DNA from: Gammaproteobacteria bacterium
GTDB lineage: Bacteria > Pseudomonadota > Gammaproteobacteria > VBWC01
DNA length: 64,000 bases
Direction of reading: 5' to 3'
NCBI GenBank assembly: GCA_006218035.1
Contig: VBWC01000010.1
Location: forward strand, 203,572-267,571
A program made the position numbers and the translations under genes. Shown piece by piece: positions 10,868 to 26,050 of the stretch. Below the pieces are notes generated by a model. That model saw only the letters and a program-made list of their open reading frames with translations. It searched no databases and was not told the origin of the DNA. The first letter of the stretch is position 1. Each line of letters starts with the position of its first letter.

Positions 10868-11848
10868 TTACTTCCCCATCATCGCCCGCACCGCCTTCAC
10901 GACATCCTTGGCATGCGGGATCGTGGCTTTTTCGAGGGCGTGGTTGTAGGGGATCGGGATATTGACGGCGGAGACGCGTTTCGGCGCGGCATCGAGTTCG
11001 AAGAAACATTCTTCGTTGATAATCGCCATGACCTCGGCGCCTACACCGACGGCCGGTTCGGCCTCTTCGACGATCACCGCGCGATGCGTCTTCGACACCG
11101 ACTTTTTTATGCCGGCGCGATCCAGCGGGCTTAAGCAGTACAGGTCCACAACTTCGCAATTGATGCCGTGCTTGTCGGCCAGCAGCTTCGCCGCCTCCAG
11201 ACACCAGTGCACCGAGATGTTGTAACCGAACAGTGTCACATCCTTGCCCTCGCGCGCGACCTCCGAGCCTACCAGCGGATGGAAGAATTCGGCGTCGGGC
11301 ACCTCGCCCTTCATGTTGTACATCAGCTCGTGTTCATAGATGAACACCGGGTCGTTGCAGCGCACGGCCGACTTCAGCATGCCATAGGCCTGGCGCGGGT
11401 TCGACGGCGTGACGACGCGCAGACCGGCAATGCCCATGAAGACCTTTTCCATGCGCGCCGAATGCTGCGCGCCCAGCTGATGCGCGGTGCCGCCCGGCGA
11501 GCGGATCACGACCGGCGCCGTCAGCTGGCCGCCGGACATGTAACGCACCTTGACCGCGGAATTGGCAATCTGGTCCAGCGCCAGCCACGCGAAGTTGACG
11601 GACATGATCTCGATAATCGGCCGCACGCCGAGAAACGACGCGCCGATACCGAGGCCGGTGTAGCCATTCTCTGAAATCGGCGTATCGATAATTCTTTCAG
11701 GGCCGTATTTGTCGTACAGGCCTTGCGTCGCCTTGTAGGTACCACCGGCCACACCAATATCTTCACCCATCGCGATCACCAGCGGATCGTTCGCCATCTC
11801 TTCATCGTGGGCACGGCGGATCGCCTCCCAGAAGCGTATCTCGGCCAT
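10868..11848 (-). CDS. 2-oxoacid (pyruvate/acetoin-type) dehydrogenase E1 component beta subunit.
   Basis: Transketolase-like pyrimidine-binding and C-terminal domains, typical of PdhB/AcoB. Its start overlaps the E1-alpha stop at 11848. Confidence 0.9.
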   Translation of the reverse strand: MAEIRFWEAIRRAHDEEMANDPLVIAMGEDIGVAGGTYKATQGLYDKYGPERIIDTPISENGYTGLGIGASFLGVRPIIEIMSVNFAWLALDQIANSAVKVRYMSGGQLTAPVVIRSPGGTAHQLGAQHSARMEKVFMGIAGLRVVTPSNPRQAYGMLKSAVRCNDPVFIYEHELMYNMKGEVPDAEFFHPLVGSEVAREGKDVTLFGYNISVHWCLEAAKLLADKHGINCEVVDLYCLSPLDRAGIKKSVSKTHRAVIVEEAEPAVGVGAEVMAIINEECFFELDAAPKRVSAVNIPIPYNHALEKATIPHAKDVVKAVRAMMGK

Positions 11849-12852
11849 CAGCTCGCCCCTCCCTGTGCACCGCCCGTTACCCAGGGATCGTTCTCGGCGA
11901 ACAGATACTTCTCCAGTTCGGCAACGTCCGGTTCCGGCGACTGTTCGGCGAACGGCACGATTTGGTTGTCTATTTCATCGAGTATTTCTTTGTCCATCGC
12001 CTTGAACTCGGCCATCGTCAGCACCTTGGCCTTGATCAAACGCTCGCGCAGGATATTGATCGGGTCGCGCTCGATCCATTCCTTCTCTTCGTCCTTGGAG
12101 CGGTAGGTGTTGGAATCGGACATCGAGTGGCCGCGATAGCGGTAGGTCATCAGCTCGAGAAAATACGGTCCCTTGCCGGAACGGACATGATCGACCGCTT
12201 TCTGCGCGGCCTTGTAGACGATCTCGATGTCCTGGCCGTCGACCTGTTCGGACGGAATGTTGTAACCGGCGACGCGCTTGTATTGATCCAGCACCGCCGT
12301 CGAACGGTCGATGCGCGTGCCGATGCCGTACAGGTTGTTTTCGCAGACATAGAGCACCGGCAATTTCCAGACCGATGCCATGTTCAGCGCCTCATGAAAG
12401 CTGCCCTGGTTGTTGGCGGCATCGCCGAGAAAGCAGATCGCGATCTCTTCTCCGCCCTTCAGCTTGATGGCCTTGGCCATGCCGGCCGCCAGCGGAAACG
12501 GCCCGCCGACCAGCGCATAGCCGCCCATGAAGCGGTGCTCGACATCAAATATATGCATGGAGCCGCCACGGCCCTTGCAGGTGCCGGTTTCTTTGCCGTA
12601 TAGCTCGGCCATGACCGCCTTGGGGTCGGCGCCGCTCAGCATGGCGTGGACGTGATCCCGGTAGCCGGTAATCACATAATCGAATCCCGGCTTTGCCGCC
12701 GCCATCACGCCATGGGCGCAGGCTTCCTGACCCGGATACAGGTGCAGGAATCCGCCGATTTTGCGCTCGACATAGCCTACGTAACAGTGCTCCTCGAAAC
12801 GCCGGGAAAACAGCATGTCGCGGAGCAGCCGTTTCTTATCAGTGTTATTCAT
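11848..12852 (-). CDS. 2-oxoacid dehydrogenase E1 component alpha subunit (TPP-binding).
   Basis: TPP motif GDAANNQG...NN, and the phosphorylation-loop-like YRYRGHSMSD, typical of PdhA/AcoA. Confidence 0.9.
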   Translation of the reverse strand: MNNTDKKRLLRDMLFSRRFEEHCYVGYVERKIGGFLHLYPGQEACAHGVMAAAKPGFDYVITGYRDHVHAMLSGADPKAVMAELYGKETGTCKGRGGSMHIFDVEHRFMGGYALVGGPFPLAAGMAKAIKLKGGEEIAICFLGDAANNQGSFHEALNMASVWKLPVLYVCENNLYGIGTRIDRSTAVLDQYKRVAGYNIPSEQVDGQDIEIVYKAAQKAVDHVRSGKGPYFLELMTYRYRGHSMSDSNTYRSKDEEKEWIERDPINILRERLIKAKVLTMAEFKAMDKEILDEIDNQIVPFAEQSPEPDVAELEKYLFAENDPWVTGGAQGGAS

Positions 12853-12944: not shown

Positions 12945-14474
12945 ATGAAAATCAAGGTAAAACAGAACCTGAACGCGCCGGCCGAAAAGGCCGTTGATTC
13001 TATTGACGCGTTGATCGTGGTATTGCCGTGTAGCGACGCCAAACCGGCCTGGCCGGTGTTTGCGTACCGAAACATCATTAAGAAGCGTTTTGAGCGCCTC
13101 GGTGACCGGGCGGGTACGACGGAGCCGTTCGTGACGGAGCTGCCGAACGGTACCGGTACCCGGGTGGCGTGCATCTGGCTGGCAGCGGACAGCAGCGCGT
13201 TCCAACGGCTGACACTGGCACGCAAGGCGGTTGCGGCGCTGCTCGGCGCTGACCCCGCCAATATAGATGTGCTGTTCGCCGGGCTGGAATCCGCCGACAC
13301 CGAACACGCGGCGCAGGCGCTGGTGGCGGCGCTACTCGCCGCATCGGCCGAGCTGCCGCAATTCAAAAGCAAGCAACCGAAACCGAAGCGCCTGGCCACG
13401 GTCGCACTGCACGGTGTGAGCAAACAAATCGATCTTGCCCGTACCCTGGCCGAGGCGGCCGGTAATAATCTTGCGCGCGAGCTGACGATACTGCCGTCGA
13501 ACGAGCTGACGCCGGCGATGTATCGCAAACGTATTGCGACACTCGCCCGGCAACACGGCTGGCGCATGCAGTTTCTCGATACCGCCGCATTAAAGCGCAA
13601 AAAGGCCGGCGCATTTCTCGCCGTTGCGCAGGGCAGCGCCGAGGCGGATGCCGGCATCGTGCATCTGCAATACCGGCCGCGCCATGCCAAACGAAAACTG
13701 GCGTTGGTTGGCAAGGGCATTTGTTACGACACCGGCGGGGTCAACGTGAAACCGGCGAAGTTCATGTACGGCATGCACGAAGACATGGCCGGCAGCGCAG
13801 TTGCGCTCGGTACGCTGCTGGCGCTTACCGGGATCAAGGCCGACATCGCCGTCGACTGCTGGCTCGCGCTGGCGCAGAACCACGTCGGCCCCAAGGCCTA
13901 CAAGCCAAACGACATCGTGACGGCGAGTAACGGCACGACGATTGAAGTGGTGCATACCGATGCCGAGGGCCGCATGGTGCTGGCCGATACGCTGGCGATC
14001 GCCTCACAAGCCAAACCGGACCTGATCATCGATTACGCAACGCTGACCGGTTCCTGCGTACATGCGCTGGGCACCGCCTACAGCGGCGCGTTTACCAATC
14101 GCGACGAGATGCTTGTCGACGTGATTGCCGCCGGGCGCGACAGCGGCGAGCGCGTCTGGCCGTTTCCGACCGATGCCGATTACGACAAGGCACTGGACAG
14201 CGACATCGCCGATATCAAGCAATGCGCGCTCGACGGCACGGCGGATCATATACTCGCGACGCGTTTCTTGAGCCGCTTCGTCGGCAACGATATCCCGTGG
14301 CTGCACATCGACCTGAGCGCCAGCAGTAACAAAGGCGGGCTGGCGCACGTGCCGACCGACACCACCGGCTTCGGCATCCGCTACACGCTGAACCTGCTGC
14401 TGGATAAACAGGTGATCAAACCGGCGCGCGCGATCAAAAAGACTGCGGAGCATCAAGCGCGAAAGAAGGCCTAG
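12945..14474 (+). CDS. M17-family aminopeptidase, leucyl aminopeptidase/peptidase B-like.
   Basis: NTDAEGR-type signature (VVHTDAEGRMVLADTL), the GKGICYDTGG motif, and an N-terminal domain resembling PepB. Confidence 0.85.
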   Translation: MKIKVKQNLNAPAEKAVDSIDALIVVLPCSDAKPAWPVFAYRNIIKKRFERLGDRAGTTEPFVTELPNGTGTRVACIWLAADSSAFQRLTLARKAVAALLGADPANIDVLFAGLESADTEHAAQALVAALLAASAELPQFKSKQPKPKRLATVALHGVSKQIDLARTLAEAAGNNLARELTILPSNELTPAMYRKRIATLARQHGWRMQFLDTAALKRKKAGAFLAVAQGSAEADAGIVHLQYRPRHAKRKLALVGKGICYDTGGVNVKPAKFMYGMHEDMAGSAVALGTLLALTGIKADIAVDCWLALAQNHVGPKAYKPNDIVTASNGTTIEVVHTDAEGRMVLADTLAIASQAKPDLIIDYATLTGSCVHALGTAYSGAFTNRDEMLVDVIAAGRDSGERVWPFPTDADYDKALDSDIADIKQCALDGTADHILATRFLSRFVGNDIPWLHIDLSASSNKGGLAHVPTDTTGFGIRYTLNLLLDKQVIKPARAIKKTAEHQARKKA

Positions 14475-14838
14475 CCCGGACGGAATGAAATGGAGTCCGG
14501 GGCATGAGCCCCCTGGCGACCCCGATGTAAACCACCGCACGCAGTTAACAACGCCCGCACACCTTAAGTCGTTGCGGCAAAACAAAAAACTGCGCGGACG
14601 CCGGCTTGCAAGTTACTGGGAAATCAAAACCTTCCCGGCAAAGGCCGCACAAATATCCGAAGTTCGGCGGTTCGTCATCCTCATCGGCCGTTAGCACCGG
14701 ATCGCACCTGGGGCCAACCGGTCGAGCACGCGTTTATTGACGGGAATCCGATCCGCGTTTAGATTGAAACAAGCAGTAGTAACCGTAGCCCTGAAATAAA
14801 AAATACCTACGGGGCGCCAAGGGGGAAATCTGTCAACG

Positions 14839-16026
14839 TTGCTGATCCTCGGCGGATCCATATTCCAGCTGCCGGTAATCTCGCGTGCTCTCAAACTGGG
14901 TCACCGGGTGATCACGGTGGATTATGCGCCGCATAATCCGGGGCATCGGCTCGCGCACGAGTATTATAACGTCAGCACGACAGACCACCGAGCGGTCCTC
15001 GCATTGGCCAGGAAATTGAGGATTGACGGCATTATCGCGTTTGCGTCCGATCCCGCGGCGTGGACTGCGGCGTATGTCGCCGATCAGATGGGCCTTCCCG
15101 GATGCCCTCCGGCCGCAGTCCACGTACTGACGAACAAGGCTCTCTTTCGCGCTTTCTTGCGAGATCACGGCTTTAATACGCCCAGGTTCGCCGTTGCTGC
15201 CGATCTTCCAGAGGCGTGCGAGGTGGCGCGCTCCATGGGGTTTCCGGTGATGGTCAAACCGGCCGATTCATCCGGAAGTAAAGGCGTGAGCCGTGTCGAC
15301 GATGCCGCCGGCATGGGCCAGGCTTTCCGTAACGCGCAGCATTACTCGCGCTGCGCAAGTGTGGTCGTTGAACAGTGGATAGAGCGGGACGGCACTCAGA
15401 TCGCCGGCGATGGCGTGGTTGTCGATGGAAAACTCGCCTTTTCCTGCCTCGGCGATGAGCATTTCGATAGCGAGTGTTCGGCATACGCGCCGGTCGGCGA
15501 GAGCTTCCCGGGCCACCTTGCCGCGGAACGACGGGAGATGCTGCTGGAGCGGCTGCAACAGCTCATGGCGTTACTTGGCATTGACAACCTGGTCTTCAAT
15601 CTCGATGCCATGTTCGATAACAACGGTGACCTGTGGTTGATCGAGATCGGGCCGCGCGCCGGCGGTAACTGCCTGCCGCTACTCATTCAACATCACACGG
15701 GGGTCGACATGGCGGACATCGTCATCCGGCAATCGCTCGGCGCACCGGTGACATTGCCTCTCCGCCCGGAAAAACCACCGGGATTTCACGCCTCGTGGAT
15801 GATTCATTCCAGATCGCCTGGCAAGCTGCGCGGGCTGCGAATGGCGCCACACCTGAATCCCTATACGATCGATATGCAACTGACAACGTCGACCGGCGCG
15901 GCGGTGAGCCGCTTTACATCCTCGAAAGATATATTGGGTTACGCACTATTCACTTTCCCAAGTGCCGCAGAAATGGAGGATAACCTTGCATGCATGGCCA
16001 CGTCACTGGAACCGATCGTCGCATAA
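14839..16026 (+). CDS. ATP-grasp domain protein, a carboxylate-amine ligase-like enzyme.
   Basis: N-terminal LILGGS, then the ATP-grasp core (FPVMVKPADSSGSKGV ... WLIEIGPRAGGN). It has a TTG start 10 nt after a strong SD, AAGGGGGAAA. Confidence 0.75.
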   Translation: MLILGGSIFQLPVISRALKLGHRVITVDYAPHNPGHRLAHEYYNVSTTDHRAVLALARKLRIDGIIAFASDPAAWTAAYVADQMGLPGCPPAAVHVLTNKALFRAFLRDHGFNTPRFAVAADLPEACEVARSMGFPVMVKPADSSGSKGVSRVDDAAGMGQAFRNAQHYSRCASVVVEQWIERDGTQIAGDGVVVDGKLAFSCLGDEHFDSECSAYAPVGESFPGHLAAERREMLLERLQQLMALLGIDNLVFNLDAMFDNNGDLWLIEIGPRAGGNCLPLLIQHHTGVDMADIVIRQSLGAPVTLPLRPEKPPGFHASWMIHSRSPGKLRGLRMAPHLNPYTIDMQLTTSTGAAVSRFTSSKDILGYALFTFPSAAEMEDNLACMATSLEPIVA

Positions 16027-17150
16027 CGACGCCATCAGCAGGCGCGTCAACGCTGATCAACTTGCCGAACCGCGATCGCTTCGAACAGCTGGCGAGGGAG
16101 ATATTTGCGTCCGGCTGGTTGACGAATAACGGGCCGATGGTGCGCGAGCTGGAGGAACGGCTCGCCGACTATCTCGGCGTCGAGTACCTGGTGCTAACCA
16201 GCAGTGGCACGCTGGCACTGCAGGTCGCCCTGCACGCGCTGGGAGTGTCAGGCTCGGTTGTCACGTCACCCTTCTCCTGGGTAACAACCGTCAGCTCACT
16301 CGCCTGGCTCGGGCTCACTCCGCTGTTCGCTGATATCGATGCCCGCACCTATAACATCGATCCGCGCAAAATCGAAGCGGCAATAACCGGGAATACGCGC
16401 GCCATTCTCGCCACCCATACCTTCGGTAACCCGTGCGATATCGAGGCGATCGATCAGATAGCCGCCCGTCGCGGACTGTTGTGCATCTACGACGCGGCAC
16501 ACGCTTTCGGCGTTGATTACCTGGACCGGAGTGTGCTTGCCTGCGGCGATGCGTCGGTACTCAGCCTGCACGCCACCAAGCTTTTTCATACCGTTGAGGG
16601 CGGTGCGGTTGTGCTGCGCGACGCGGAACACTGTCGGCGTGCCCGGTTGGCCGTCAACAATGGCCAGGCGGCCGACGGCCAGGTGCAGGCGCCGGGTATC
16701 AATGGCCGGCTGAGTGAGTTGCACGCGGCAGTGGGATTGTGCCTGCTGGACGATATCGATGCGGTGATGACGCACCGGCGTCAGAGCGCCGAAAAACTGC
16801 GGCTGCTGCTGGCATCCAGCGCAACCGGCCTGCAACAATTCAATCCACTGGCACGGGTGAATCACGCCTTTTTTCCGGTCGTATTTCCAACGCCCGAGCT
16901 GCGCGAAACTGCAATGGCTGCGTTGACCAGCGCGGGATTCATTCCCCATATCTACTTTGATCCGACGCTCAATCGACTGCCGTTCATCGGGTCCGGGCCA
17001 GCCATGCCTGTCGCAGAAGCGCTGAGCAAACGGATTCTCTGCCTGCCATTGCTCACCGCAGTGTCGCAGGAGGAATTGGCAGCCATGGCGGAAATAATTG
17101 CCGGGATCTGCCCGCTCGAAGAATATTCAGCTCGCAAGACCTGTGCATGA
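15990..17150 (+). CDS. DegT/DnrJ/EryC1/StrS-family PLP-dependent sugar aminotransferase.
   Basis: SGWLTNNGPMVRELEERLADYLGVEYLVLTSSGTLAL, then DAAHAFG, then SLHATKLF (the Lys site). The ATG lies inside the 3' end of the ATP-grasp gene, so the true start may be slightly downstream. Confidence 0.85.
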   Translation: MHGHVTGTDRRITTPSAGASTLINLPNRDRFEQLAREIFASGWLTNNGPMVRELEERLADYLGVEYLVLTSSGTLALQVALHALGVSGSVVTSPFSWVTTVSSLAWLGLTPLFADIDARTYNIDPRKIEAAITGNTRAILATHTFGNPCDIEAIDQIAARRGLLCIYDAAHAFGVDYLDRSVLACGDASVLSLHATKLFHTVEGGAVVLRDAEHCRRARLAVNNGQAADGQVQAPGINGRLSELHAAVGLCLLDDIDAVMTHRRQSAEKLRLLLASSATGLQQFNPLARVNHAFFPVVFPTPELRETAMAALTSAGFIPHIYFDPTLNRLPFIGSGPAMPVAEALSKRILCLPLLTAVSQEELAAMAEIIAGICPLEEYSARKTCA

Positions 17151-18415
17151 TGATCCCGCGTCAGTTACGCCCGGCAGGTGAACGCGTACCGTTGCCGGGC
17201 ATCAGTCCGCGGTCGTCCGGGGACAAGGCCGCGTCCGCGGCGGCAAACCTGCAGTTTCCGGGGTATCTCGCCCACTGGTACGGCTCGGGAACAGCGGCGC
17301 TGGCCGCAGCGCTGAAACTTGCGGCAAATCGTGCTACGACGACGCGCCCCGAAGTAGTGATGCCGGCTTATGCGTGTCCGGATGTCGTGAGCGCCGCGGT
17401 CTTCGCCGGCGTGCAGCCGGTGCTCGCGGACACGCTACCGGAGCTACCCTGGCTCGACCCTGTTAGCGTGGAAAGGTCCATCACCCGGCACACGGTTGCC
17501 TTACTGTCGATCAGATTTCTCGGGCTACCGTCGAACGACCAGGCACTGCGCCGCATGCTCGGCAGCGACGGACCGCTACTCATTGAAGACCACGCGCACG
17601 CTTTCCCGCTGGACATGCAAGTCCGCTCCAGCGCCGACCTGGTTGTCATCAGCTTCGGACGTGGCAAGCCGGTATCACTGCGGCGCGGCGGAGTTCTGCT
17701 GCAGACACTTGGCTCAACCGCAGCGAACGCGCTGCCCCCGCAGCCCGCCGATAGACGTGAAACCGGGGTCAGGCGGCTCACGCATCAGGCTAACTGTTTA
17801 CTCTACAACCTCTCGATTCAACCTGCGGTTTACCGGTTTCTTACAGGTGTGGCGAGAGTCCCGGTCGACGCCATTTCCTATCGTGAATTGACGGAACTCG
17901 AGCCGTTTCCGCACCGCCTGCACAGACTCCTGCCACAGGCGATCGACCGCCACAGAAGTACGGGGCGATGGCGCGAAGATACCATCGAGTCAATACTGCG
18001 CGGGCCGGACGTACCCTGGGTTGATGTCGCAACGCACAGCAGGCGCATGGCCGCCGCCGATTGCAGTACGGCCACACGCACCGACCGGCTATGGCGGTAT
18101 CCGTTGCTGCTGCGGTCAGAAACGGAGCGAGATCGATTGTTTGCCGGCCTTTGGCAGCAAGGACTGGGGCCGTCGCGAATGTATCGTCGTTTGCTCTCTG
18201 AGATTCCGGCCACCGCGACTTACGTGCGTTCAGGCGCCCACCCGGCCGCTGGCGACTTTGCCCGACGCTTGCTCACGTTGCCGTTGCATTCGGATGTCCG
18301 GAAGCGCGATTTGCTGGCTATGCGAAATTGCTTGGATCAATTTTCAGAGGTGTTTGACCAGACCGGCCGCACAGCCTTGCACCGATCCCATAAGGGTGCC
18401 AGGGTCGCGGACTGA
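17147..18415 (+). CDS. Second, divergent DegT-like aminotransferase-fold protein with a roughly 150-aa C-terminal extension.
   Basis: YGSGTAALAAAL, DHAHAF, and SFGRGKPVS (an SFxxxK-like Lys motif). There is a 4-bp overlap with the upstream gene. Confidence 0.55.
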   Translation: MMIPRQLRPAGERVPLPGISPRSSGDKAASAAANLQFPGYLAHWYGSGTAALAAALKLAANRATTTRPEVVMPAYACPDVVSAAVFAGVQPVLADTLPELPWLDPVSVERSITRHTVALLSIRFLGLPSNDQALRRMLGSDGPLLIEDHAHAFPLDMQVRSSADLVVISFGRGKPVSLRRGGVLLQTLGSTAANALPPQPADRRETGVRRLTHQANCLLYNLSIQPAVYRFLTGVARVPVDAISYRELTELEPFPHRLHRLLPQAIDRHRSTGRWREDTIESILRGPDVPWVDVATHSRRMAAADCSTATRTDRLWRYPLLLRSETERDRLFAGLWQQGLGPSRMYRRLLSEIPATATYVRSGAHPAAGDFARRLLTLPLHSDVRKRDLLAMRNCLDQFSEVFDQTGRTALHRSHKGARVAD

Positions 18416-18418
18416 CGT

Positions 18419-19177
18419 ATGGAAGCGCTCTCTAGACTTGACCTGCGCAAGCTGGATTCCCCCCTGGATGTCGGTGCGCGTATCACCGCCGCCTGCCGGA
18501 CGGCGCGGCTGGTTGTCGCGCGCACGCATCCGGCGGTGGGTCGCCACCGGGAATTCTGGGACGAGGCGCTGGCAGAACAATGCGAGCGTGTCCCGGTGGA
18601 CGAGGACGTCAAGACCGGCCTCGCGACCGGGAATTTGTGGTCCGACGTTGAATTCAACCCGGAATTCCAGCAATGTTTTCGCCACTCCAGTTCTGCACAA
18701 CCGCTACACACCGATGGCGCCTACCTTTCCGATCCGCCGCCGATCGTATTCCTGGTCTGCCACCGCGCCGCGCCGCGCGGCGGCGCAACCCTGTTCCTGG
18801 ACGGCCCGCAACTACTATCGCTGCTATCCACCGAACAACCCGAACTGTTGGCCATGGTCACTGCGTCACGCGCGCGCTTCAGGAAAGCAGACGTGGATGT
18901 CGAATCGACGATCATCGCTGCGCATCCGGCGGGGCCGTTGCTGCGGTGGAACTATTACGCGATGAGAAATCAGGCGTCGCCCGCTTTGCTCGCCGTCGTG
19001 GAAAAATTTCATTGCTTTCTGCAGGACACCGTCGACCGGTCACTGCCGCTTGCGGTCCGGCTCAATGAAGGCGATGCTGTGTTCTTCCACGACGCTCGTG
19101 TGCTGCATGGACGAGATGGTTTTACGGCCAGCATCACCGGCGATCGATGCTTGTGGAAAGGCGCTCTACGGATTTAA
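18419..19177 (+). CDS. TauD/TfdA-family Fe(II)/2-oxoglutarate-dependent dioxygenase.
   Basis: HTDGAY (HxD) and a distal VLHGRDGF (His...Arg), with spacing typical of the TauD fold. Confidence 0.6.
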   Translation: MEALSRLDLRKLDSPLDVGARITAACRTARLVVARTHPAVGRHREFWDEALAEQCERVPVDEDVKTGLATGNLWSDVEFNPEFQQCFRHSSSAQPLHTDGAYLSDPPPIVFLVCHRAAPRGGATLFLDGPQLLSLLSTEQPELLAMVTASRARFRKADVDVESTIIAAHPAGPLLRWNYYAMRNQASPALLAVVEKFHCFLQDTVDRSLPLAVRLNEGDAVFFHDARVLHGRDGFTASITGDRCLWKGALRI

Positions 19178-20502
19178 CGGCGAACAACGAATGTGTGAAT
19201 AACGGCGTGAAGCGACTCCTCTCGATCAATAACTATCACTACCGCCGCGCCGGCTCCGACGCGTTATTTCTGGATCAGGATCGTTTGTTTCAGGCACGCG
19301 GCTGGCAGACGGCGGTATTCTCCATGAAGCATCGCGACAACCTCGCTACTCCATGGCAGGAATTCTTCGTCGATGAGCTCGAGTTCGGCGGCGACTACTC
19401 GTTGCCCACCCGGCTGCGGCTGGCGGGCAAGGTGCTGTATTCACGCGAGGCCCGCGCCAACATCAGCCGTCTTCTCGATCGTTACAGTCCGGACGTGGTG
19501 CATATTCACAGTATCTATCACCATATTTCTCCCGCGATCCTGCCGGTACTGGGTCGCCGCAGTGTGCCGATCGTGATGACCGCTCACGATTACAAGCTGC
19601 TCTGTCCCGCCTACAAAATGTACGATGGCAACAGCGTGTGCGAAGAATGTCGTGGCGGCCGGGTGTTGCCGCTAATCCGCAAGCGCTGCCTGCATGGTTC
19701 AGCAGCGGTGAGTTCACTGGTCGCGATGGAGTCGGTGTTTCACCGCTGGGCAGGATTTTATGAGCGTCATATCGACAGACTGATATGTCCCAGCCGGTTT
19801 ATGTTTGACAAATTTGTTGCGTGGGGATGGCCGAGCGAACGACTGGTTCATCTCTGTAACTTCTTCGACGAAAGGCTGTGGACACCATCCTTCCAGCCGG
19901 GCAGGTATTTCTTATATTTCGGCCGGCTCGCGCCCGAGAAAGGGCTCGCGACTTTTATACGCGCCGCGGCGCAGGCGAAATCAGCGATCAAGATCGTCGG
20001 CTGGGGAGCGGAACGCAATTTTCTGCAGACACTCGCTGACCAACTGCACGTCGCGGTGGAATTCATCGATCACGTACCGCCGGCCCTGCTGGCCTCATTG
20101 ATCGGCAATGCACGTGCCGTCGTAGTGCCGTCGGAATGGTACGAGAACGCGTCTCTCGCGATTCTGGAGTCGTTTGCCAGCGGCAAACCGGTCATTGCTG
20201 CCGGCATCGGCGGCATTCCGGAAATGGTCATCGACGGCGATAACGGCTGGTTGTTTCCCCCGGGTGATGCCGCAGCGCTGGCCAGCCGTCTGGATGAAGT
20301 GGCTTCAATGCCGGATAGCGAAGTGGAATCCTTCGGCCGCAGGGCGCGCCTGTTTGTTGAACGACATTACAGCGCTGATCGGTATTTTGCGGAGATGACC
20401 CGTCTTTACGCCGACCTTGGCGCCAGGGAGCGCTTGAATACAGGGTATTCCGTGGCGGAACGACTGGAGCCACAGGCGGGCTCCAGTCGAGTGGGTGACT
20501 GA
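19147..20502 (+). CDS. GT4-family glycosyltransferase. It is a paralogue of 43883..45118. The start is probably the GTG at 19207.
   Basis: EWYENASLAILESFASGKPVIAAGIGGIPEMV (the EX7E region) and a Cys4 cluster C-PAYKMYDGNSVCEECRGG...C. Its N-terminus aligns with that of the paralogue from VKRLLSINNYHY onward. Confidence 0.85.
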   Translation: MLVERRSTDLTANNECVNNGVKRLLSINNYHYRRAGSDALFLDQDRLFQARGWQTAVFSMKHRDNLATPWQEFFVDELEFGGDYSLPTRLRLAGKVLYSREARANISRLLDRYSPDVVHIHSIYHHISPAILPVLGRRSVPIVMTAHDYKLLCPAYKMYDGNSVCEECRGGRVLPLIRKRCLHGSAAVSSLVAMESVFHRWAGFYERHIDRLICPSRFMFDKFVAWGWPSERLVHLCNFFDERLWTPSFQPGRYFLYFGRLAPEKGLATFIRAAAQAKSAIKIVGWGAERNFLQTLADQLHVAVEFIDHVPPALLASLIGNARAVVVPSEWYENASLAILESFASGKPVIAAGIGGIPEMVIDGDNGWLFPPGDAAALASRLDEVASMPDSEVESFGRRARLFVERHYSADRYFAEMTRLYADLGARERLNTGYSVAERLEPQAGSSRVGD

Positions 20503-21182
20503 TGAAACAACTCAACAAGTCAACGGGCGTGTTTTCTACCGTATCCGGCAGGACAGGCGGCACCCTGCACGGCGAATATACCAAACGGATTGTCGATCTG
20601 GTCATCGCGATTCCGTTGTCCTTGATGGCGCTGCCGCTAATGCTGCTGTTGATGTTGCTGATACGCCTCGATTCGTCCGGGAGTCCGGTTTTCACGCAAA
20701 CTCGCGTTGGCCGTGGCGGACGGCCGTTTACGATATACAAGCTACGGACCTTTCACACCCGCAGCTTCGGGATCTTTCCGGACGAGGAAATCCGCTGGGG
20801 GGATCCGCGTGTCACCCGGGCAGGCCATTTATTGAGACGCAGCAAGCTTGATGAATTACTACAGCTGGTCAATATCCTGATGGGCGACATGTCGCTCGTC
20901 GGACCACGGCCGGATATCCCCTGTCAGGCCAGCGCTTACGGCGATGTTGAGTCGCGACGACTGGCCTTGCGGCCCGGACTCACGGGAATTGCACAGATCA
21001 GCGGGAACACCTGGCTGGGCTGGTCGCAGCGCATTCAATTGGATCTGTGGTACATCGACAACAGGTCGTTGCTCCTGGATCTCAAGATTCTGTTACTGAC
21101 GATACCCGTGATGCTGCGCGGTGAACGACGCGTCGATGACCCGCTAAACGTATGCAAACTGCTGTCGATCAACTCGCCGTGA
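20502..21182 (+). CDS. Small polyprenyl-phosphate sugar-1-phosphate transferase, PglC/WbaP C-terminal-domain type.
   Basis: Single N-terminal TM, then RPFTIYKLRTF ... MSLVGPRPD ... GLTGIAQISG, the bacterial sugar transferase signature. Confidence 0.85.
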   Translation: MKQLNKSTGVFSTVSGRTGGTLHGEYTKRIVDLVIAIPLSLMALPLMLLLMLLIRLDSSGSPVFTQTRVGRGGRPFTIYKLRTFHTRSFGIFPDEEIRWGDPRVTRAGHLLRRSKLDELLQLVNILMGDMSLVGPRPDIPCQASAYGDVESRRLALRPGLTGIAQISGNTWLGWSQRIQLDLWYIDNRSLLLDLKILLLTIPVMLRGERRVDDPLNVCKLLSINSP

Positions 21183-21750
21183 GACGAAGCGACAGCCGGA
21201 TAATTCATTGATCAGGGCGCCTTGCGCAGGAAAGAAAACCGCCTGGCGCCAAACACGGCGATCCGGACCGGAAAGAGCGTAGCAATCGCTCCCGGATACC
21301 CGCGCAAGGGGGTATCCGGGAGCATCCCACGCACCCGCCATCACCGGCGGGCACCGGTTCTCCCCCGCGACTTTTATGCTTTTTTTGCCGCCCATACGCG
21401 GTAACAGTCGGTTTTTTTAACCGACCGGGCCATTCGACCGCGGATTCGGTATCATAGGCGTCCCTGTCGGGAGGGTCCCTGATGGTTCCGGCGACAAGAA
21501 CAATCCGCGGATAAATGCCATCGCCGTCGATACGCGCCAGCAGCTCGCATCGACGGCGCCGCCTGGCAGTACGCGGTAACATCTGGTGCGAGACGCGGCA
21601 TGGATCGCCAGAGGGTTCCGCGCACTCCCGCTTGTTAACGGAGACGCGGCACGCACACCGGATATCAGGGATATGGGCGCTTGTTGCAGCCGATCCACAG
21701 GGTCAGCTGCGCGGGAATCAACGATTCTTTTTGGGAGCGGGGAGTTACCA

Positions 21751-23082
21751 ATGACGAACAACAAATTACTGGCCGTCTGGGCCTGTGCCTTTCTCGGCCT
21801 GAGTATGGTCGCCACCGCAGACGATCAGACGGAGCGCACGTGGTATCTGGCGCCGGCGCTGGGCTACGTTGTGTCTGACAGCGACCGAGCCGCGGATGAC
21901 GGCTTCAATATGCAGCTGGGCATCGGACGGCTGATCAACGACAAGTGGAATCTCGAGCTGAACGCGACCCACTCGGCGATGGATTTCAGCAACACCAGCG
22001 GTGAATACGATCAGGGCGGCATCGAACTCGACGGTCTGTATTTCTTCAGCCGGGAACGCCGCTGGAATCCCTACGGCCTGCTCGGTATCGGCACGATGGA
22101 TACCGAAGTCCCCGGCAAGAGCGCCGCCAACCTGCTCGCCAGCGCCGGCGGCGGCGTGATGCATACGCTGAACGAACGCGGCATTGCGCTGCGTGTCGAC
22201 GCGCGCTACCGGTATGACGACGACAACTCCAGCCGCGCGGGTCAGAGCAGCTTCGCGGACTGGGTGTTTAACGCCGGTTTGACGATCCCGTTTGGCGGAA
22301 AAATGCAGACAGAAGCGGCGGCGCCGGTCGGTGACAGCGACGGCGACGGCGTCAACGATGCCGACGATCGCTGTGCGGATACGCCGGCAGGAACGCCGGT
22401 CGACGGCACCGGTTGCCTGGTGGATGCCGATCATGACGGCGTCACCGACAGTAAGGACCGCTGCCCGAAGACGCCGGCCGCGCGCAAGGTGAATGCACAA
22501 GGCTGCGAGAACGACAGCGATCGGGACGGCGTCGTGGACGACCTCGACCGCTGCCCCGGCACGCCTGCCGGCATGAAGGTGAGCGCCCTCGGCTGCGAGA
22601 TGGACAGCGATGCCGACGGCATCGTCGACAGCAAGGATCAGTGCGCCGGCTCCAGGGCGGGTGACAAGGTCGACCCGAACGGTTGCCTGAGCGCGATGGA
22701 TCAATCCGTCCCGCCAGGTCTTACGTTCTCGGTTACCGGCGAGACGTTCACGCTACGCGGCGTGACGTTTGAATATGACTCGGCATTGCTGACCAAGGGA
22801 TCCGAAACGGTATTGACGGGCATTGCCGCGACGTTGCGCGACCGTCCGGAACTGCGCATCGAGATCAGCGGCCATACCGATAACCGCGGAACGGAACCCT
22901 ATAACACCGCGCTCTCGCAGCAGCGTGCCGAGGCGGTGCGGGCGTTTCTGATCAAGAACGGTGTTGCGGAGGCGAATGTCGATGCCAAGGGTTACGGCCC
23001 GATCCGGCCGATCGCGGATAACGGCAGCAAGGAAGGTCAGGCCCAGAATCGCCGCGTCGAGCTGCGCGTTCTTGGCAAGTAA
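21751..23082 (+). CDS. OmpA-family outer-membrane protein with thrombospondin type-3 (Asp-rich, Ca-binding) repeats and a C-terminal peptidoglycan-binding OmpA domain.
   Basis: Signal peptide MTNNKLLAVWACAFLGLSMVATA, then a beta-barrel-like N-terminus. Repeats DSDGDGVNDADDRCADTPAG, DADHDGVTDSKDRCPKTPA, DSDRDGVVDDLDRCPGTPAG and DSDADGIVDSKDQC. OmpA_C motif: NTALSQQRAEAVRAFL...NRRVEL. The start is set at an internal ATG after the SD GGAGCGGGGAG. The ORF track starts at 21586. Confidence 0.85.
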   Translation: MTNNKLLAVWACAFLGLSMVATADDQTERTWYLAPALGYVVSDSDRAADDGFNMQLGIGRLINDKWNLELNATHSAMDFSNTSGEYDQGGIELDGLYFFSRERRWNPYGLLGIGTMDTEVPGKSAANLLASAGGGVMHTLNERGIALRVDARYRYDDDNSSRAGQSSFADWVFNAGLTIPFGGKMQTEAAAPVGDSDGDGVNDADDRCADTPAGTPVDGTGCLVDADHDGVTDSKDRCPKTPAARKVNAQGCENDSDRDGVVDDLDRCPGTPAGMKVSALGCEMDSDADGIVDSKDQCAGSRAGDKVDPNGCLSAMDQSVPPGLTFSVTGETFTLRGVTFEYDSALLTKGSETVLTGIAATLRDRPELRIEISGHTDNRGTEPYNTALSQQRAEAVRAFLIKNGVAEANVDAKGYGPIRPIADNGSKEGQAQNRRVELRVLGK

Positions 23083-23097
23083 ACACTGCCACCGGTA

Positions 23098-23143
23098 GAC
23101 CCCGGCAGCGCGATACCGTTCGTGTATCGCGCTGCCGGGGTCA
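23098..23143 (+). terminator. Terminator-like 19-bp perfect stem-loop, gaccccggcagcgcgatac cgttcgtg tatcgcgctgccggggtc, just after the OmpA/TSP3 stop.
   Basis: The perfect inverted repeat is visible in the sequence. The downstream T-tract is weak. Confidence 0.4.
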
Positions 23144-23257
23144 CTGTATTGCCGGTGCGCGTTGGCGATCCCCGCCGGGCGTAACGAGCTGCCGTTACTA
23201 TGCCTGCTGTTTCACCGGCAGCACCCTTGCCCCGCGGATTGGTTATCATAGTCTCCC

Positions 23258-24199
23258 TTGATGCATCCGCTCACCATGACTCCGGCAATCAACATACAGT
23301 CCGTACACAAACGTTTCGGCAGCGTGAACGCGCTCAAGGGCGTGAGTCTTACGATCAACGGCGGCGAGTTTTTCGGCCTGCTCGGCCCGAACGGCGCCGG
23401 CAAGTCCACGCTGATCAATATCATCGCCGGACTGACGCGTGCCGATGAAGGCGACGTCGCCGTGCTCGGCCATCACGTCGTCAGGAATTACCGCCAGTCC
23501 CGGCGCTGCATCGGCGTCGTACCTCAGGAACTGGTCTACGATCCGTTCTTCACAGTGCGCGAGGCGCTGCGTATCCAGGCCGGTTACTTCGGCCTCGGCC
23601 GCGAGAATGACCCGTGGATCGACGAGCTACTCGACGCGCTGATGCTCGGCGACAAGCGCGATACCAATATGCGCGCGCTGTCCGGCGGCATGAAGCGCCG
23701 CGTGTTGATCGCGCAGGCGCTGGTGCACAAACCGGAGGTCGTCGTGCTCGACGAGCCGACTGCGGGCGTCGACGTCGAACTGCGCCAGTCGTTGTGGGCG
23801 TTTGTGAAGCGTTTGCATCGTGACGGCCATACCATCGTATTGACGACGCACTATCTCGAGGAGGCCGAGGCGCTGTGCGACCGCATCGCGATCCTGAATC
23901 ACGGCGAGGTGATCGCGCTCGATACGACCCAGGGCCTGCTGGAGCGCGGCATCGGCCGCACGCTGCGCGTCTGCGTGACGACCGCCGCGCCGGTGACCGG
24001 CCTGACGGGGAAATACGCGGCCAAGATCGTCCGCCAGGCGGGCAACCGCCTTGACCTGCAGCTGGAGCGCAGCAGCGATTCGGTGGTCGACATGCTCGAC
24101 GCCGTACGCCAGTGCGGCGCGACGATCATTGATCTGTCCACCGAGGAGGCGGATCTCGAGGACGTATTTGTCGAACTGACCAGGCGAAAAAAAGCATGA
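23258..24199 (+). CDS. ABC transporter ATP-binding protein, ABC-2 exporter type.
   Basis: Walker A GPNGAGKST, signature LSGGMKRR, Walker B VVVLDEPTAGVD, and the H-loop. Confidence 0.9.
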   Translation: MMHPLTMTPAINIQSVHKRFGSVNALKGVSLTINGGEFFGLLGPNGAGKSTLINIIAGLTRADEGDVAVLGHHVVRNYRQSRRCIGVVPQELVYDPFFTVREALRIQAGYFGLGRENDPWIDELLDALMLGDKRDTNMRALSGGMKRRVLIAQALVHKPEVVVLDEPTAGVDVELRQSLWAFVKRLHRDGHTIVLTTHYLEEAEALCDRIAILNHGEVIALDTTQGLLERGIGRTLRVCVTTAAPVTGLTGKYAAKIVRQAGNRLDLQLERSSDSVVDMLDAVRQCGATIIDLSTEEADLEDVFVELTRRKKA

Positions 24200-24957: not shown

Positions 24958-25015
24958 CGCGCATCCATCCTCATGCTGATTTCGTGCCGCCCCGGAAAGC
25001 TGGCATAATGGCCCG

Positions 25016-26047: not shown

Positions 26048-26050
26048 CGC

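What the first reader, a model, noticed from the sequence alone, without database searches (positions are those of the whole stretch)
14839..21182. Tightly coupled cassette of ATP-grasp, two DegT-type aminotransferases, a TauD-like dioxygenase, GT4 and a PglC-like transferase, which is a candidate pathway for an unusual decorated amino sugar
Six same-strand genes have overlapping or abutting stops and starts (16026/15990, 17150/17147, 18415/18419, 19177/19147, 20502/20502), so they are probably translationally coupled. Together they supply two sugar transamination steps, an ATP-dependent carboxylate-amine ligation (a candidate for amide-linking an amino acid or acyl group to an amino sugar), an Fe/2OG hydroxylation, a glycosyl transfer and a phosphosugar transfer to a polyprenyl phosphate. 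I do not recognise this combination as any standard nucleotide-sugar pathway, and the TauD-family member is atypical in glycan clusters. It is followed by an OmpA/TSP3 protein and an ABC-2 exporter. The high GC content indicates it is native to this genome rather than recently acquired.
Basis: partly seen in the sequence, partly recalled or inferred. Interest (0 to 1): 0.7.

Follow-up and report, generated by a model that had tools for sequence, protein, structure and literature searches.

The report
Conserved six-gene amino-sugar tailoring operon
This is a real, tightly packed six-gene operon, conserved in a handful of uncultured proteobacteria, that most likely builds a lipid-linked sugar carrying an unusual acylated and oxidised/aminated amino sugar; two of its enzymes belong to small families that nobody has characterised.

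Summary
Six same-strand ORFs sit at exactly the stated coordinates, with overlapping or abutting junctions. They encode an ATP-grasp ligase, a DesI-like DegT aminotransferase (AT1), a divergent DegT-like PLP enzyme (AT2), a small TauD-like Fe/2OG oxygenase, a GT4 and a PglC-sized phosphoglycosyl transferase (PGT).

The block recurs in the same order in at least eight metagenomic loci or MAGs (41-66% identity outside close relatives). Its flanks are unrelated in each, so it is a self-contained unit. The downstream OmpA and ABC-2 genes are not part of it.

AT1 plus ATP-grasp is a widespread two-gene module of glycan loci. Its only characterised analogue is Pat/Pyl of Bacillus cereus UDP-yelosamine synthesis, which also lies next to a small PGT. 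AT2 and the TauD-like protein are rare and uncharacterised. More distant TauD-like homologues lie beside small PGT genes across several phyla, usually followed by an aldo-keto reductase. No copy of the block encodes an NAD(P)-dependent keto-sugar-forming enzyme.

My inference is that the oxygenase makes a carbonyl which AT2 aminates (LipL- or KanJ/KanK-like logic).

Verdict: a new variant of a known kind, of moderate to high interest. The chemistry is unresolved.

The parts
14475..14838 (+). 364-bp leader between pepA and the first cassette gene; probable promoter region
   Evidence: It holds the only sigma-70-like match in 14300-23400, at 14737-14765 (TTGACG-17-TAGATT, 9/12); this is a consensus match only. 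No Rfam family matches. An AGGGGG motif lies 13 nt before the TTG start.
14839..16026 (+). ATP-grasp carboxylate-amine ligase, 395 aa (L-amino-acid-ligase/PurT-like); predicted to N-acylate the amino sugar made by AT1
   Evidence: Pfam ATP-grasp_4, Dala_Dala_lig_C, CPSase_L_D2 and LAL_C2. PDB best hits are 4dim (full length, 2.7e-20) and the L-amino acid ligase 3vot. More than 2,600 homologues exist. At 41-48% identity the gene lies directly downstream of a DegT gene in Pseudomonas, Marinobacter and Desulfogranum loci.
15990..17150 (+). AT1: DegT/DesI-like nucleotide-sugar aminotransferase, 386 aa (probably acts at C4)
   Evidence: Pfam DegT 283 bits, full length. NCBIfam best is DesI at 258 bits, below the 650 cutoff. 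PDB best is DesI 2po3 at 4e-60, then WbpE. It is 44% identical to the DegT that precedes the ATP-grasp in L083 and L084.
17147..18415 (+). AT2: divergent DegT-like PLP enzyme, 422 aa
   Evidence: Pfam DegT 74.6 bits over residues 46-186 only. The PLP lysine K174 ('SFGRGKPVS'), D148 and S169 are invariant across the family. AlphaFold pLDDT is 92.4. The nearest folds are sugar aminotransferases (WecE, WbpE, perosamine synthase, DesV) at TM 0.55-0.63. The family is small: 115 hits, in two tiers.
18419..19177 (+). Small TauD/TfdA-family Fe(II)/2-oxoglutarate oxygenase, 252 aa
   Evidence: Pfam TauD 77.2 bits. H97, D99, T124, H230 and R243 are invariant in 25 homologues. Model pLDDT is 94. The nearest folds are TmpA, BBOX, DfmD, CsiD/GlaH, clavaminate synthase and AsnO/VioC, all at 21% identity or less. 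Only 141 50%-identity clusters score E<=1e-10 among 1.84 billion representatives.
19147..20502 (+). GT4 (GT-B, retaining) glycosyltransferase, 451 aa; adds a second sugar; dispensable in one lineage
   Evidence: Pfam Glycos_transf_1 and Glyco_transf_4. Only generic PDB matches. It is 50-62% identical in L004, L005, L007, L091 and L092, and absent from L006.
20502..21182 (+). Small monotopic phosphoglycosyl transferase (PglC-sized), 226 aa
   Evidence: Bac_transf 185.7 bits over the full-length profile. PglC 2.2e-33 and the WbaP catalytic domain 4.6e-33 score equally. The Asp-Glu dyad 'LDEL', the GPRP motif and the helix-breaking Pro are kept.
21183..21585 (+). 403-bp gap that ends the unit
   Evidence: Read directly. 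The downstream OmpA and ABC-2 genes are not co-conserved with the block outside L003. No canonical intrinsic terminator was found here.

Best explanation
The six genes form one operon that makes a polyprenyl-diphosphate-linked glycan primer whose key residue is a heavily tailored amino sugar.

Proposed steps:
1. AT1 converts an NDP-4-keto-6-deoxyhexose into the 4-amino sugar. The keto-sugar would be supplied by a housekeeping 4,6-dehydratase encoded elsewhere.
2. The ATP-grasp enzyme activates a carboxylic acid (an amino acid or a 2-oxo/dicarboxylic acid) as an acyl phosphate and amide-links it to that amine, as Pat and Pyl do for UDP-yelosamine.
3. The TauD-like Fe/2OG oxygenase hydroxylates a carbon that bears a heteroatom, on the sugar or on its acyl arm. 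The product collapses to a carbonyl, and AT2 transaminates that carbonyl to a second amine.
4. The small PGT transfers the finished sugar-1-phosphate to undecaprenyl phosphate.
5. The GT4 adds one more sugar.

Status of each part. Shown: gene structure, domain identities, intact catalytic residues, and co-conservation. Inferred from context and precedent: the substrates, the order of steps, and the oxygenase-to-AT2 carbonyl hand-off.
For: Unit and coupling:
- Exact overlapping or abutting junctions.
- Same gene order in eight loci with unrelated flanks.

AT1 + ATP-grasp:
- A conserved adjacent pair in bona fide glycan loci: a Pseudomonas flagellin glycosylation island, and a Marinobacter locus with RmlB-RmlA ... 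DegT-ATP-grasp-GNAT-Wzx.
- AT1 is 44% identical to those DegTs.
- AT1's best matches are C4 aminotransferases.

PGT as consumer of the tailored sugar:
- L006 keeps ATP-grasp, AT1, AT2, TauD and PGT but lacks GT4.
- The PGT keeps the catalytic dyad.

Oxygenase and AT2 are competent enzymes:
- Fe and 2OG ligands are invariant.
- The PLP Lys and Asp are invariant.

Carbonyl hand-off:
- In 38 of 60 loci the TauD homologue is immediately flanked by an aldo-keto reductase, which consumes carbonyls. In 43 of 60 a small PGT lies within two genes.
- In the window's subclade the reductase is replaced by AT2, 3 nt upstream of TauD.
- L008 and L011 show a further TauD-then-DegT-domain adjacency.
- No SDR dehydratase/dehydrogenase, PglF, UDP-Glc dehydrogenase or AKR lies within about 10 kb of any of the eight blocks.
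- Precedents for 2OG oxygenase to carbonyl: LipL converts UMP to uridine-5'-aldehyde; KanJ/KanK convert an amino sugar to a 2'-oxo sugar and then an alcohol.
- From my own knowledge of E. coli TauD: K247 (at least 90% conserved) sits four residues after the 2OG-binding Arg, where TauD's Arg270 binds the substrate's anionic group.
Against: - No substrate is established for any of the six enzymes, and none reaches an equivalog cutoff.
- I could not compare the ATP-grasp with Pyl at the sequence level, because the yelosamine paper and its sequences are not held.
- The structural neighbours of the TauD-like protein are small-molecule and amino-acid hydroxylases, not sugar enzymes. Simple hydroxylation of the acyl arm is therefore equally compatible.
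- DegT genes are common in glycan loci, so TauD-DegT adjacency alone is weak evidence.
- PGTs are known to use UDP-sugars, whereas AT1's best match (DesI) uses a dTDP-sugar, so the nucleotide carrier is unclear.
- No flippase, polymerase or ligase accompanies the block, so the fate of the product is unknown.
- Co-transcription is not shown.
Confidence: 0.5

Rival explanations
1. Same operon and same AT1/ATP-grasp/PGT logic, but the last two enzymes act on the acyl arm in a yelosamine-like way. The ATP-grasp ligates 2-oxoglutarate (or glutarate or an amino acid). AT2 converts the free 2-oxo acid to an amino acid (a gamma-glutamyl-type arm). The TauD-like enzyme simply hydroxylates that arm, possibly creating the attachment point for the GT4 sugar.
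For: [quoted passage not shown]
- From my memory of Hwang et al. 2014: the B. cereus polymer carries a 2-hydroxyglutaryl amide whose hydroxyl is glycosylated.
- The fold neighbours of the TauD-like protein include glutarate 2-hydroxylase CsiD/GlaH and the amino-acid hydroxylases AsnO, VioC and KDO1.
- This route gives AT2 a carbonyl without needing a sugar dehydrogenase.
Against: - It does not explain why most TauD homologues are paired with an aldo-keto reductase and a PGT in loci that have no ATP-grasp at all.
- AT2's nearest folds are nucleotide-sugar aminotransferases, not amino-acid transaminases.
- The acyl donor of this ATP-grasp is unknown.
Confidence: 0.27
2. The cassette makes a soluble or lipid-anchored small molecule rather than a cell-surface glycan. 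Candidates are an aminoglycoside- or nucleoside-like metabolite, or a mycothiol/bacillithiol-type glycoside whose amine is ligated to an amino acid. The PGT would serve only as an anchor or export step.
For: - No flippase, polymerase, chain-length regulator or ligase lies near any copy of the block.
- The GT4's closest solved relatives include BshA, MshA, PimA and a tetrahydrobiopterin glucosyltransferase, which use small or lipid acceptors.
- The TauD-like fold neighbours act on small molecules.
- The LipL and KanJ precedents come from antibiotic pathways.
Against: - The PGT is the one partner kept even when GT4 is lost, and it has an intact catalytic dyad.
- The TauD-like family is embedded in ordinary polysaccharide loci with Wzx/Wzy, many GTs and PglD/E/F-type genes.
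- The AT1/ATP-grasp pair is found in O-antigen/capsule-type and flagellin-glycosylation loci.
- No resistance, regulator or exporter gene is conserved with the block.
Confidence: 0.1
3. It is an ordinary member of an already characterised pathway (bacillosamine, legionaminic or pseudaminic acid, viosamine or Ara4N), merely divergent in sequence.
For: AT1 hits DesI, PseC, LegC, ArnB and WecE models. The PGT is as similar to PglC as to anything else.
Against: - All hits are far below the equivalog cutoffs.
- There is no PglF/PseB/LegB-type dehydratase, no PglD-type acetyltransferase, no NeuB-like synthase, no CMP-transferase and no ArnA/C/T in or near any copy.
- None of these pathways contains an ATP-grasp, a second DegT and a TauD-type oxygenase.
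Confidence: 0.04

Closest known systems
UDP-yelosamine pathway of Bacillus cereus ATCC 14579 (Pat aminotransferase, Pyl ATP-grasp ligase, adjacent small PGT Q814Z7; Hwang et al. 2014, as cited in PMC11257628)
   Same: A DegT-family aminotransferase and an ATP-grasp carboxylate-amine ligase are encoded next to a small monotopic PGT. The ligase puts an acid onto the 4-amino group of a nucleotide sugar, and the tailored sugar is the predicted PGT substrate.
   Different: The gene order is ATP-grasp then DegT here. No 4,6-dehydratase lies in or near the block. There are two extra enzymes, AT2 and the TauD-like oxygenase, plus a GT4. The host is an uncultured Gram-negative proteobacterium. Sequence relatedness of the ATP-grasp to Pyl, and the identity of the acid, could not be tested.
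N,N'-diacetylbacillosamine module PglC/PglD/PglE/PglF (Campylobacter, Neisseria, Acinetobacter ItrA-Qhb-Gdr)
   Same: A small PGT with the same fold and catalytic dyad, and a DegT aminotransferase that makes a 4-amino sugar for the reducing end. More distant TauD-like homologues actually sit inside such PGT-acetyltransferase-DegT-PglF modules.
   Different: The window cassette has no PglD-type hexapeptide acetyltransferase and no PglF-type dehydratase. Acylation is ATP-dependent (ATP-grasp) rather than acetyl-CoA-dependent.
2OG-oxygenase-to-carbonyl pairs: LipL (TauD-type UMP dioxygenase giving uridine-5'-aldehyde, followed by PLP enzymes) and KanJ/KanK (amino sugar to 2'-oxo sugar to alcohol)
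   Same: The logic is the same: an Fe/2OG oxygenase hydroxylates a carbon bearing a leaving group, and the resulting carbonyl is taken by a PLP enzyme or a reductase. This matches the AT2-TauD pairing here and the TauD-AKR pairing in relatives.
   Different: The resemblance is mechanistic only. KanJ is a PhyH-type enzyme. LipL is not among the listed sequence or fold matches. Those pathways make antibiotics, not polyprenyl-linked glycans. That an aminotransferase (LipO) follows LipL is from my memory and was not verified here.
Uncharacterised TauD-like / aldo-keto reductase / small-PGT triad in polysaccharide loci of Cyanobacteria, Sphingomonadales, Psychrobacter, Brevundimonas, Flavobacteriia and Myxococcota
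   Same: The same TauD-like family (30-46% identity) with all Fe/2OG ligands conserved, lying beside a homologous small PGT.
   Different: Those loci carry an AKR instead of AT2 and usually lack the ATP-grasp. They are embedded in large glycan clusters, whereas the window block stands alone among housekeeping genes.

Membership tests
UDP-yelosamine-type pathway (Pat/Pyl/small PGT) | A DegT aminotransferase and an ATP-grasp carboxylate-amine ligase encoded side by side | tested here: met
   The ORFs overlap by 37 nt. The pair is conserved at 36-48% identity in L083-L086.
UDP-yelosamine-type pathway (Pat/Pyl/small PGT) | A small monotopic PGT in the same operon | tested here: met
   A 226-aa Bac_transf protein is the last gene of the block. 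It is kept in L003-L006, L091 and L092; the L007 contig ends after GT4.
UDP-yelosamine-type pathway (Pat/Pyl/small PGT) | The ATP-grasp is an orthologue of Pyl (Bc5272) and uses 2-oxoglutarate | not testable with these tools
   The Pyl sequence and the original paper are not held. Substrate choice needs an enzyme assay.
UDP-yelosamine-type pathway (Pat/Pyl/small PGT) | A UDP-GlcNAc 4,6-dehydratase supplies the 4-keto sugar | tested here: not met
   tblastn with SDR and PglF queries finds nothing within about 10 kb of eight block loci. A dehydratase elsewhere in the genome cannot be excluded.
diNAcBac pathway (PglC/D/E/F) | A PglF-type dehydratase and a PglD-type hexapeptide N-acetyltransferase | tested here: not met
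   No Polysacc_synt_2 or Hexapep homologue lies in or near any block.
Pseudaminic/legionaminic acid pathways | The aminotransferase reaches the PseC or LegC equivalog score; a NeuB-like synthase and a CMP-transferase are present | tested here: not met
   PseC scores 174.7 bits against a 423.5 cutoff, and LegC 158.9 against 420. No synthase or cytidylyltransferase lies in the locus.
TauD/TfdA Fe(II)/2-oxoglutarate oxygenase superfamily | HxD...H iron triad, the 2OG-binding Arg/Thr, and the double-stranded beta-helix fold | tested here: met
   H97, D99, H230, T124 and R243 are invariant. Pfam TauD scores 77.2 bits against a 27 cutoff. Model pLDDT is 94, with TmpA/BBOX/CsiD-type folds as top matches.
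Taurine dioxygenase proper, or any named TauD-family enzyme (BBOX, TmpA, AsnO and so on) | Reaches an equivalog-level score against a characterised enzyme | tested here: not met
   The best NCBIfam hit is gamma-butyrobetaine dioxygenase at 57.7 bits against a 414.75 cutoff. PDB sequence hits are E>=2e-7, and fold matches are at 21% identity or less.
DegT/DnrJ/EryC1 sugar aminotransferases (for AT2) | Fold-type I PLP fold with the Schiff-base Lys and the pyridine-N Asp | tested here: met
   K174 and D148 are invariant. Pfam scores 74.6 bits against a 19.8 cutoff, but the match is partial. The nearest folds are WecE, WbpE, Per and DesV, loosely at TM 0.55-0.63. Whether it acts as a transaminase, dehydratase or decarboxylase is not determinable.
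Small monotopic phosphoglycosyl transferases (PglC-like) | About 200 aa, one re-entrant N-terminal helix with a Pro break, the Asp-Glu catalytic dyad, and a full Bac_transf domain | tested here: met
   226 aa, with Bac_transf matched over profile positions 1-178 of 179. The alignment to PglC keeps 'LDEL', 'GPRP' and the helix Pro. Sugar specificity is not assignable, because PglC and WbaP score equally.
GT4 retaining glycosyltransferases | GT-B fold with Glyco_transf_4 N-terminal and Glycos_transf_1 C-terminal domains | tested here: met
   Both domains score above their cutoffs. Donor and acceptor are unknown.

The most novel reading that the evidence does not exclude
The TauD-like enzymes that sit beside small PGT genes are a previously unrecognised, oxygen-dependent way to install a carbonyl on a nucleotide- or lipid-linked sugar (or on its acyl arm). 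They would take the place of the usual NAD(P)-dependent dehydratase or dehydrogenase. The carbonyl is then reduced by an aldo-keto reductase in most lineages. In this cassette it is instead transaminated by a dedicated divergent DegT enzyme (AT2), giving a new class of di-amino or otherwise re-functionalised sugars at the reducing end of bacterial glycans.
Probability: 0.25. Interest if true: 0.8.

Novelty: new variant of a known kind. Interest (0 to 1): 0.55.

Why it matters
Reducing-end sugars chosen by small PGTs define whole classes of bacterial surface glycans, and they are targets for inhibitors and glyco-engineering. This cassette is compact and self-contained, which makes it a tractable six-gene unit for heterologous reconstitution. 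It combines the little-studied ATP-grasp route for N-acylating amino sugars with two uncharacterised enzyme families.

Working out what the TauD-like enzyme does would also annotate its relatives. Those lie beside PGT genes in cyanobacteria, sphingomonads, Psychrobacter, flavobacteria and myxobacteria. It could also reveal a new oxygen-dependent step in nucleotide-sugar chemistry. If the enzyme only hydroxylates an acyl side chain, the result is a new decorated sugar, which would be useful but incremental.

Tried and rejected
- **OmpA/TSP3 and ABC-2 genes as part of the system: rejected.** They are conserved only in the near-identical L003. They follow a 403-bp gap. The permease matches a general ABC-2 family, not KpsM.
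- **Link to the large EPS island at 31-64 kb: rejected as a single unit.** It lies 10 kb away across arg and housekeeping genes. It has a lower GC and its own WcaJ-equivalog PGT. Its one SDR is TviC/GalE-like, not a dehydratase.
- **A sugar-tethered 2-oxoglutaryl group as the oxygenase's own co-substrate: rejected.** The residues that bind the free C5 carboxylate of 2OG (T124, R243) are invariant (the TauD numbering is from my own knowledge).
- **Campylobacter jejuni HS:2 Cj1436/1437/1438** (two DegT-family enzymes acting on small phosphates, plus an ATP-grasp amidoligase). I recalled this from memory as a lead, but could not test it because no sequences or papers were retrievable. It remains a formal possibility for AT2.
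- **Riboswitch or known RNA in the leader or trailer:** none found.
- **Intrinsic terminator after the PGT:** none by consensus scan.
- **Plasmid-borne annotated homologues of the TauD-like protein:** none.
- **Literature searches** for TauD-type enzymes in O-antigen or capsule loci, and for ATP-grasp enzymes with viosamine or amino sugars, gave nothing relevant.
- **The yelosamine paper itself is not held**, and the Imperiali paper's supplements are not held.
- **My crude ORF caller mis-called genes in several high-GC loci** (L004, L007 and others). For those I relied on tblastn.

Full report
**1. Observation**

The ORF list shows six + strand ORFs at exactly the reported coordinates. I read the junctions directly:
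- The AT1 ATG at 15990 lies 37 nt inside the ATP-grasp ORF and is preceded by GGAGG.
- AT1 and AT2 share an ATGA.
- AT2 and the TauD-like gene are 3 nt apart.
- The GT4 ATG lies 31 nt inside the TauD-like ORF (an alternative GTG start exists at 19195).
- GT4 and the PGT share TGATG.

A 364-bp leader precedes the block. It contains the only sigma-70-like match in the 9-kb scan. No convincing internal terminator was found, and no Rfam element is present. A 403-bp gap follows the PGT.

GC content is 0.59-0.62, like the flanks, and unlike the 0.47-0.55 island further downstream.

**2. What the proteins are**

Pfam confirms all six domain calls above gathering thresholds. NCBIfam places none of them in a characterised equivalog. 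AT1 scores DesI 258 bits against a 650 cutoff, PseC 175 against 424, and LegC 159 against 420. The PGT scores EPS_sugtrans 229 against 296. The oxygenase's best hit is gamma-butyrobetaine dioxygenase at 58 against 415.

| Protein | Best matches among solved structures |
|---|---|
| ATP-grasp | A full-length structural-genomics protein (4dim) and an L-amino-acid ligase (3vot) |
| AT1 | DesI (4e-60), then WbpE |
| AT2 | Weak sequence matches, but the PLP lysine aligns with those of DesI and DesV |
| TauD-like | E>=2e-7 to DfmD, BBOX and TmpA |
| PGT | PglC and the WbaP catalytic domain equally (about 1e-33); keeps the Asp-Glu dyad |
| GT4 | Generic matches only |

In an alignment of 25 TauD-like homologues, H97, D99, T124, H230 and R243 are invariant. 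These have the spacing of the iron triad and 2OG ligands of E. coli TauD (my own knowledge). In 29 AT2-family sequences, D148, S169 and K174 are invariant.

AlphaFold models are confident: pLDDT 94 for the oxygenase and 92 for AT2.
- The oxygenase's nearest folds are small-molecule and amino-acid 2OG oxygenases: TmpA, BBOX, DfmD, IsnB/PvcB, CsiD/GlaH, clavaminate synthase, KDO1, AsnO and VioC. All are at 21% identity or less.
- AT2's nearest folds are nucleotide-sugar aminotransferases, but the fit is loose, at TM 0.55-0.63.

**3. Context in the window**

The cassette lies among housekeeping genes. Upstream are 2-oxoacid dehydrogenase E1 alpha, E1 beta and an E2-E3 fusion, then leucyl aminopeptidase. 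Downstream are an OmpA/TSP3 protein, a DrrA-type ABC-2 transporter, an RNase T-like exonuclease, and argD- and argF-type genes (class-III aminotransferase, ornithine/aspartate carbamoyltransferase).

A separate low-GC EPS island occupies about 31-64 kb. It has its own WcaJ-equivalog PGT, many GT4s, an XrtA/PEP-CTERM-type amidotransferase and WecB.

The source is a MAG labelled Gammaproteobacteria bacterium.

**4. Conservation**

The identical TauD-like protein is found on seven assembled contigs; the two loci shown carry the same gene order over their extent. A pattern scan of 185,579 reference genomes returned 70 loci (L003-L072) with substantial matches to the TauD-like protein.

tblastn of all cassette proteins shows the following:
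- The full block, in order, occurs in L003 (87-98% identity).
- The full block also occurs in L004 (a betaproteobacterial MAG) and L005 (a gammaproteobacterial MAG).
- L007 (Burkholderiales) has the block as far as GT4, where the contig ends.
- L006 has the block without GT4.
- Identities in L004-L007 are 41-66%.

Two more metagenomic contigs (L091, L092) have the same six genes in the same order at 46-62% identity, next to unrelated genes such as RND efflux pumps.

Hit lists for the three rarer proteins share many 'longest contig' lengths (130505, 156108, 94688, 275669, 39633, 13561, 8239, 9609, 15244, 23207, 249947). This implies about a dozen independent co-occurrences (my inference).

None of the carriers is cultured. 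pepA, OmpA and the ABC-2 genes are conserved only in L003.

**5. Two modules with different histories**

*(a) AT1 + ATP-grasp.* The ATP-grasp family is large, with more than 2,600 hits at E<=1e-10. At 41-48% identity it lies directly downstream of a DegT that is 36-44% identical to AT1. Examples are:
- a Pseudomonas citronellolis flagellin glycosylation island;
- a Marinobacter locus with RmlB-RmlA ... DegT-ATP-grasp-GNAT-Wzx;
- a Desulfogranum locus.

The only biochemically characterised analogue I could find is B. cereus Pat/Pyl. [quoted passage not shown] It is encoded directly upstream of a small PGT.

*(b) AT2 + TauD-like.* Both families are small.
- An exhaustive phmmer search of 1.84 billion cluster representatives finds 141 TauD-like clusters at E<=1e-10 and 37 at E<=1e-30.
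- AT2 has 115 hits in two tiers. The closer tier (42-96%) shares contigs with the TauD-like hits, including the fetched block loci. The 31-40% tier is a translationally coupled GT2-DegT pair in EPS loci.

*Partners of the TauD-like family.* I clustered crude gene calls around 60 TauD-like loci. A small PGT lies within two genes in 43. An aldo-keto reductase lies immediately adjacent in 38. Both are present in 33. These loci often sit inside PGT-hexapeptide acetyltransferase-DegT-PglF (bacillosamine-type) modules. They come from Cyanobacteria, Sphingomonadales, Psychrobacter, Brevundimonas, Flavobacteriia and Myxococcota.

In the window's subclade the reductase is absent. AT2 sits 3 nt upstream of the oxygenase. 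In L008 and L011, a protein of about 680 aa immediately follows (L008) or lies one gene downstream of (L011) the TauD-like gene. Its C-terminal half is a DegT domain with the PLP lysine.

**6. The missing enzyme**

I ran tblastn with SDR epimerase/dehydratase, PglF/CapD, short-chain SDR, UDP-Glc dehydrogenase, AKR and hexapeptide acetyltransferase queries. Nothing is found within about 10 kb of the block in any of eight loci.

So the operon carries two PLP aminotransferase-type enzymes and no NAD(P)-dependent enzyme that could create a carbonyl.

**7. Mechanism**

The best-supported reading is as follows.
- AT1 and the ATP-grasp make an N-acylated 4-amino-6-deoxyhexose nucleotide, in the Pat/Pyl manner. 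They use a keto-sugar from a housekeeping dehydratase, as the Pseudomonas island must also do.
- The TauD-like oxygenase and AT2 form a carbonyl-making and carbonyl-aminating pair.
- The small PGT loads the product onto undecaprenyl phosphate. This is supported by L006, which keeps the PGT but not GT4.
- GT4 then adds a second sugar.

The carbonyl idea rests on four points:
- the family-wide pairing with a reductase;
- the replacement of that reductase by a PLP enzyme in this subclade;
- the absence of any other carbonyl source;
- precedents. LipL is a TauD-type enzyme that converts UMP to uridine-5'-aldehyde. KanJ/KanK oxidise an amino sugar to a 2'-oxo sugar and then reduce it.

The main rival keeps everything else the same. 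In it, the oxygenase simply hydroxylates the acyl arm, and AT2 transaminates a ligated 2-oxo acid. This fits the CsiD/AsnO-like fold neighbours but not the reductase pairing. I could not discriminate between the two readings computationally.

**8. Comparison and novelty**

The cassette works like a yelosamine- or bacillosamine-type reducing-end sugar pathway. It fails the membership tests for every characterised one: no PglD or PglF, no dehydratase, and sub-threshold equivalog scores. It also adds two uncharacterised enzyme families.

I found no paper describing a TauD-type enzyme in glycan assembly, or this gene combination.

I rate it a new variant of a known kind.

**9. Limits**

- All functional statements beyond domain identity and conserved residues are inference.
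- Co-transcription is not shown.
- The nucleotide carrier (UDP or dTDP), the acid that is ligated, the oxygenase substrate and the fate of the lipid-linked product are all unknown.
- The Pyl comparison could not be made at the sequence level.

Noticed in passing
window 7399-10422 (-), with 10868-11848 (-) and 11848-12852 (-): A 1007-aa single polypeptide fuses a complete E2 (two lipoyl domains, an E3-binding domain and the acyltransferase core) to a complete E3 dihydrolipoamide dehydrogenase. It lies downstream of the E1 alpha and E1 beta genes. This is an unusual E2-E3 fusion in a 2-oxoacid dehydrogenase operon.
   Followed up: no
window about 31000-64000, mostly - strand: A low-GC (0.47-0.55) EPS island with strongly negative GC skew. 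It contains a WcaJ-equivalog PGT (31461-33008), eight GT4-type genes, an XrtA/PEP-CTERM-type amidotransferase homologue (52806-54737), WecB (60893-62017), a 1164-aa NTP-transferase/GH127-like fusion (57351-60845) and a malectin-domain protein (37917-40355). Three large ORFs have no Pfam or NCBIfam hit (45157-46503, 49194-50912, 50989-52755).
   Followed up: partly
L009, L012-L022, L024-L027, L030-L033, L038-L047, L051-L053, L060-L069 and others (TauD-like match at about 10001 in most): An uncharacterised triad of TauD-like oxygenase, aldo-keto reductase and small PGT recurs in polysaccharide loci of Cyanobacteria, Alpha- and Gammaproteobacteria, Bacteroidota and Myxococcota. The AKR is adjacent in 38 of 60 loci and a PGT lies within two genes in 43 of 60. 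Several cyanobacterial versions add a PhyH-family oxygenase and an Acetyltransf_6 protein.
   Followed up: partly
L087 7865-10131; L089/L090 7850-10173: The more distant AT2 relatives (31-40% identity) form a translationally coupled GT2-then-DegT pair in Wzx/Wzy-type EPS loci (Thiohalomonas denitrificans and 'Proteobacteria bacterium 005FR1'). In L089/L090 an Acetyltransf_6 gene and a Cupin_8/JmjC-type oxygenase gene lie next door.
   Followed up: no
L008 6503-8524; L011 11690-13738: Proteins of about 680 aa in which an unknown N-terminal half is fused to a divergent DegT domain (26% identity to AT1, PLP lysine present). They lie just downstream of TauD-like genes (directly in L008, one gene further in L011).
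   Followed up: partly
L083 4360-10773: A Pseudomonas citronellolis flagellin glycosylation island carries a 1173-aa multi-GT2 protein followed by DegT, ATP-grasp and a hexapeptide protein, between fliC and flgA. This suggests an ATP-grasp-acylated amino sugar on flagellin.
   Followed up: no
window 2973-6962 (-): A 1329-aa protein with five PAS domains followed by GGDEF and EAL domains (c-di-GMP turnover), upstream of the dehydrogenase operon.
   Followed up: no
window 24971-26086 (-) / 25016-26047 (+): Two long ORFs overlap almost completely on opposite strands. The minus-strand ORF (371 aa) has no Pfam hit, so it is unclear which strand is coding.
   Followed up: no
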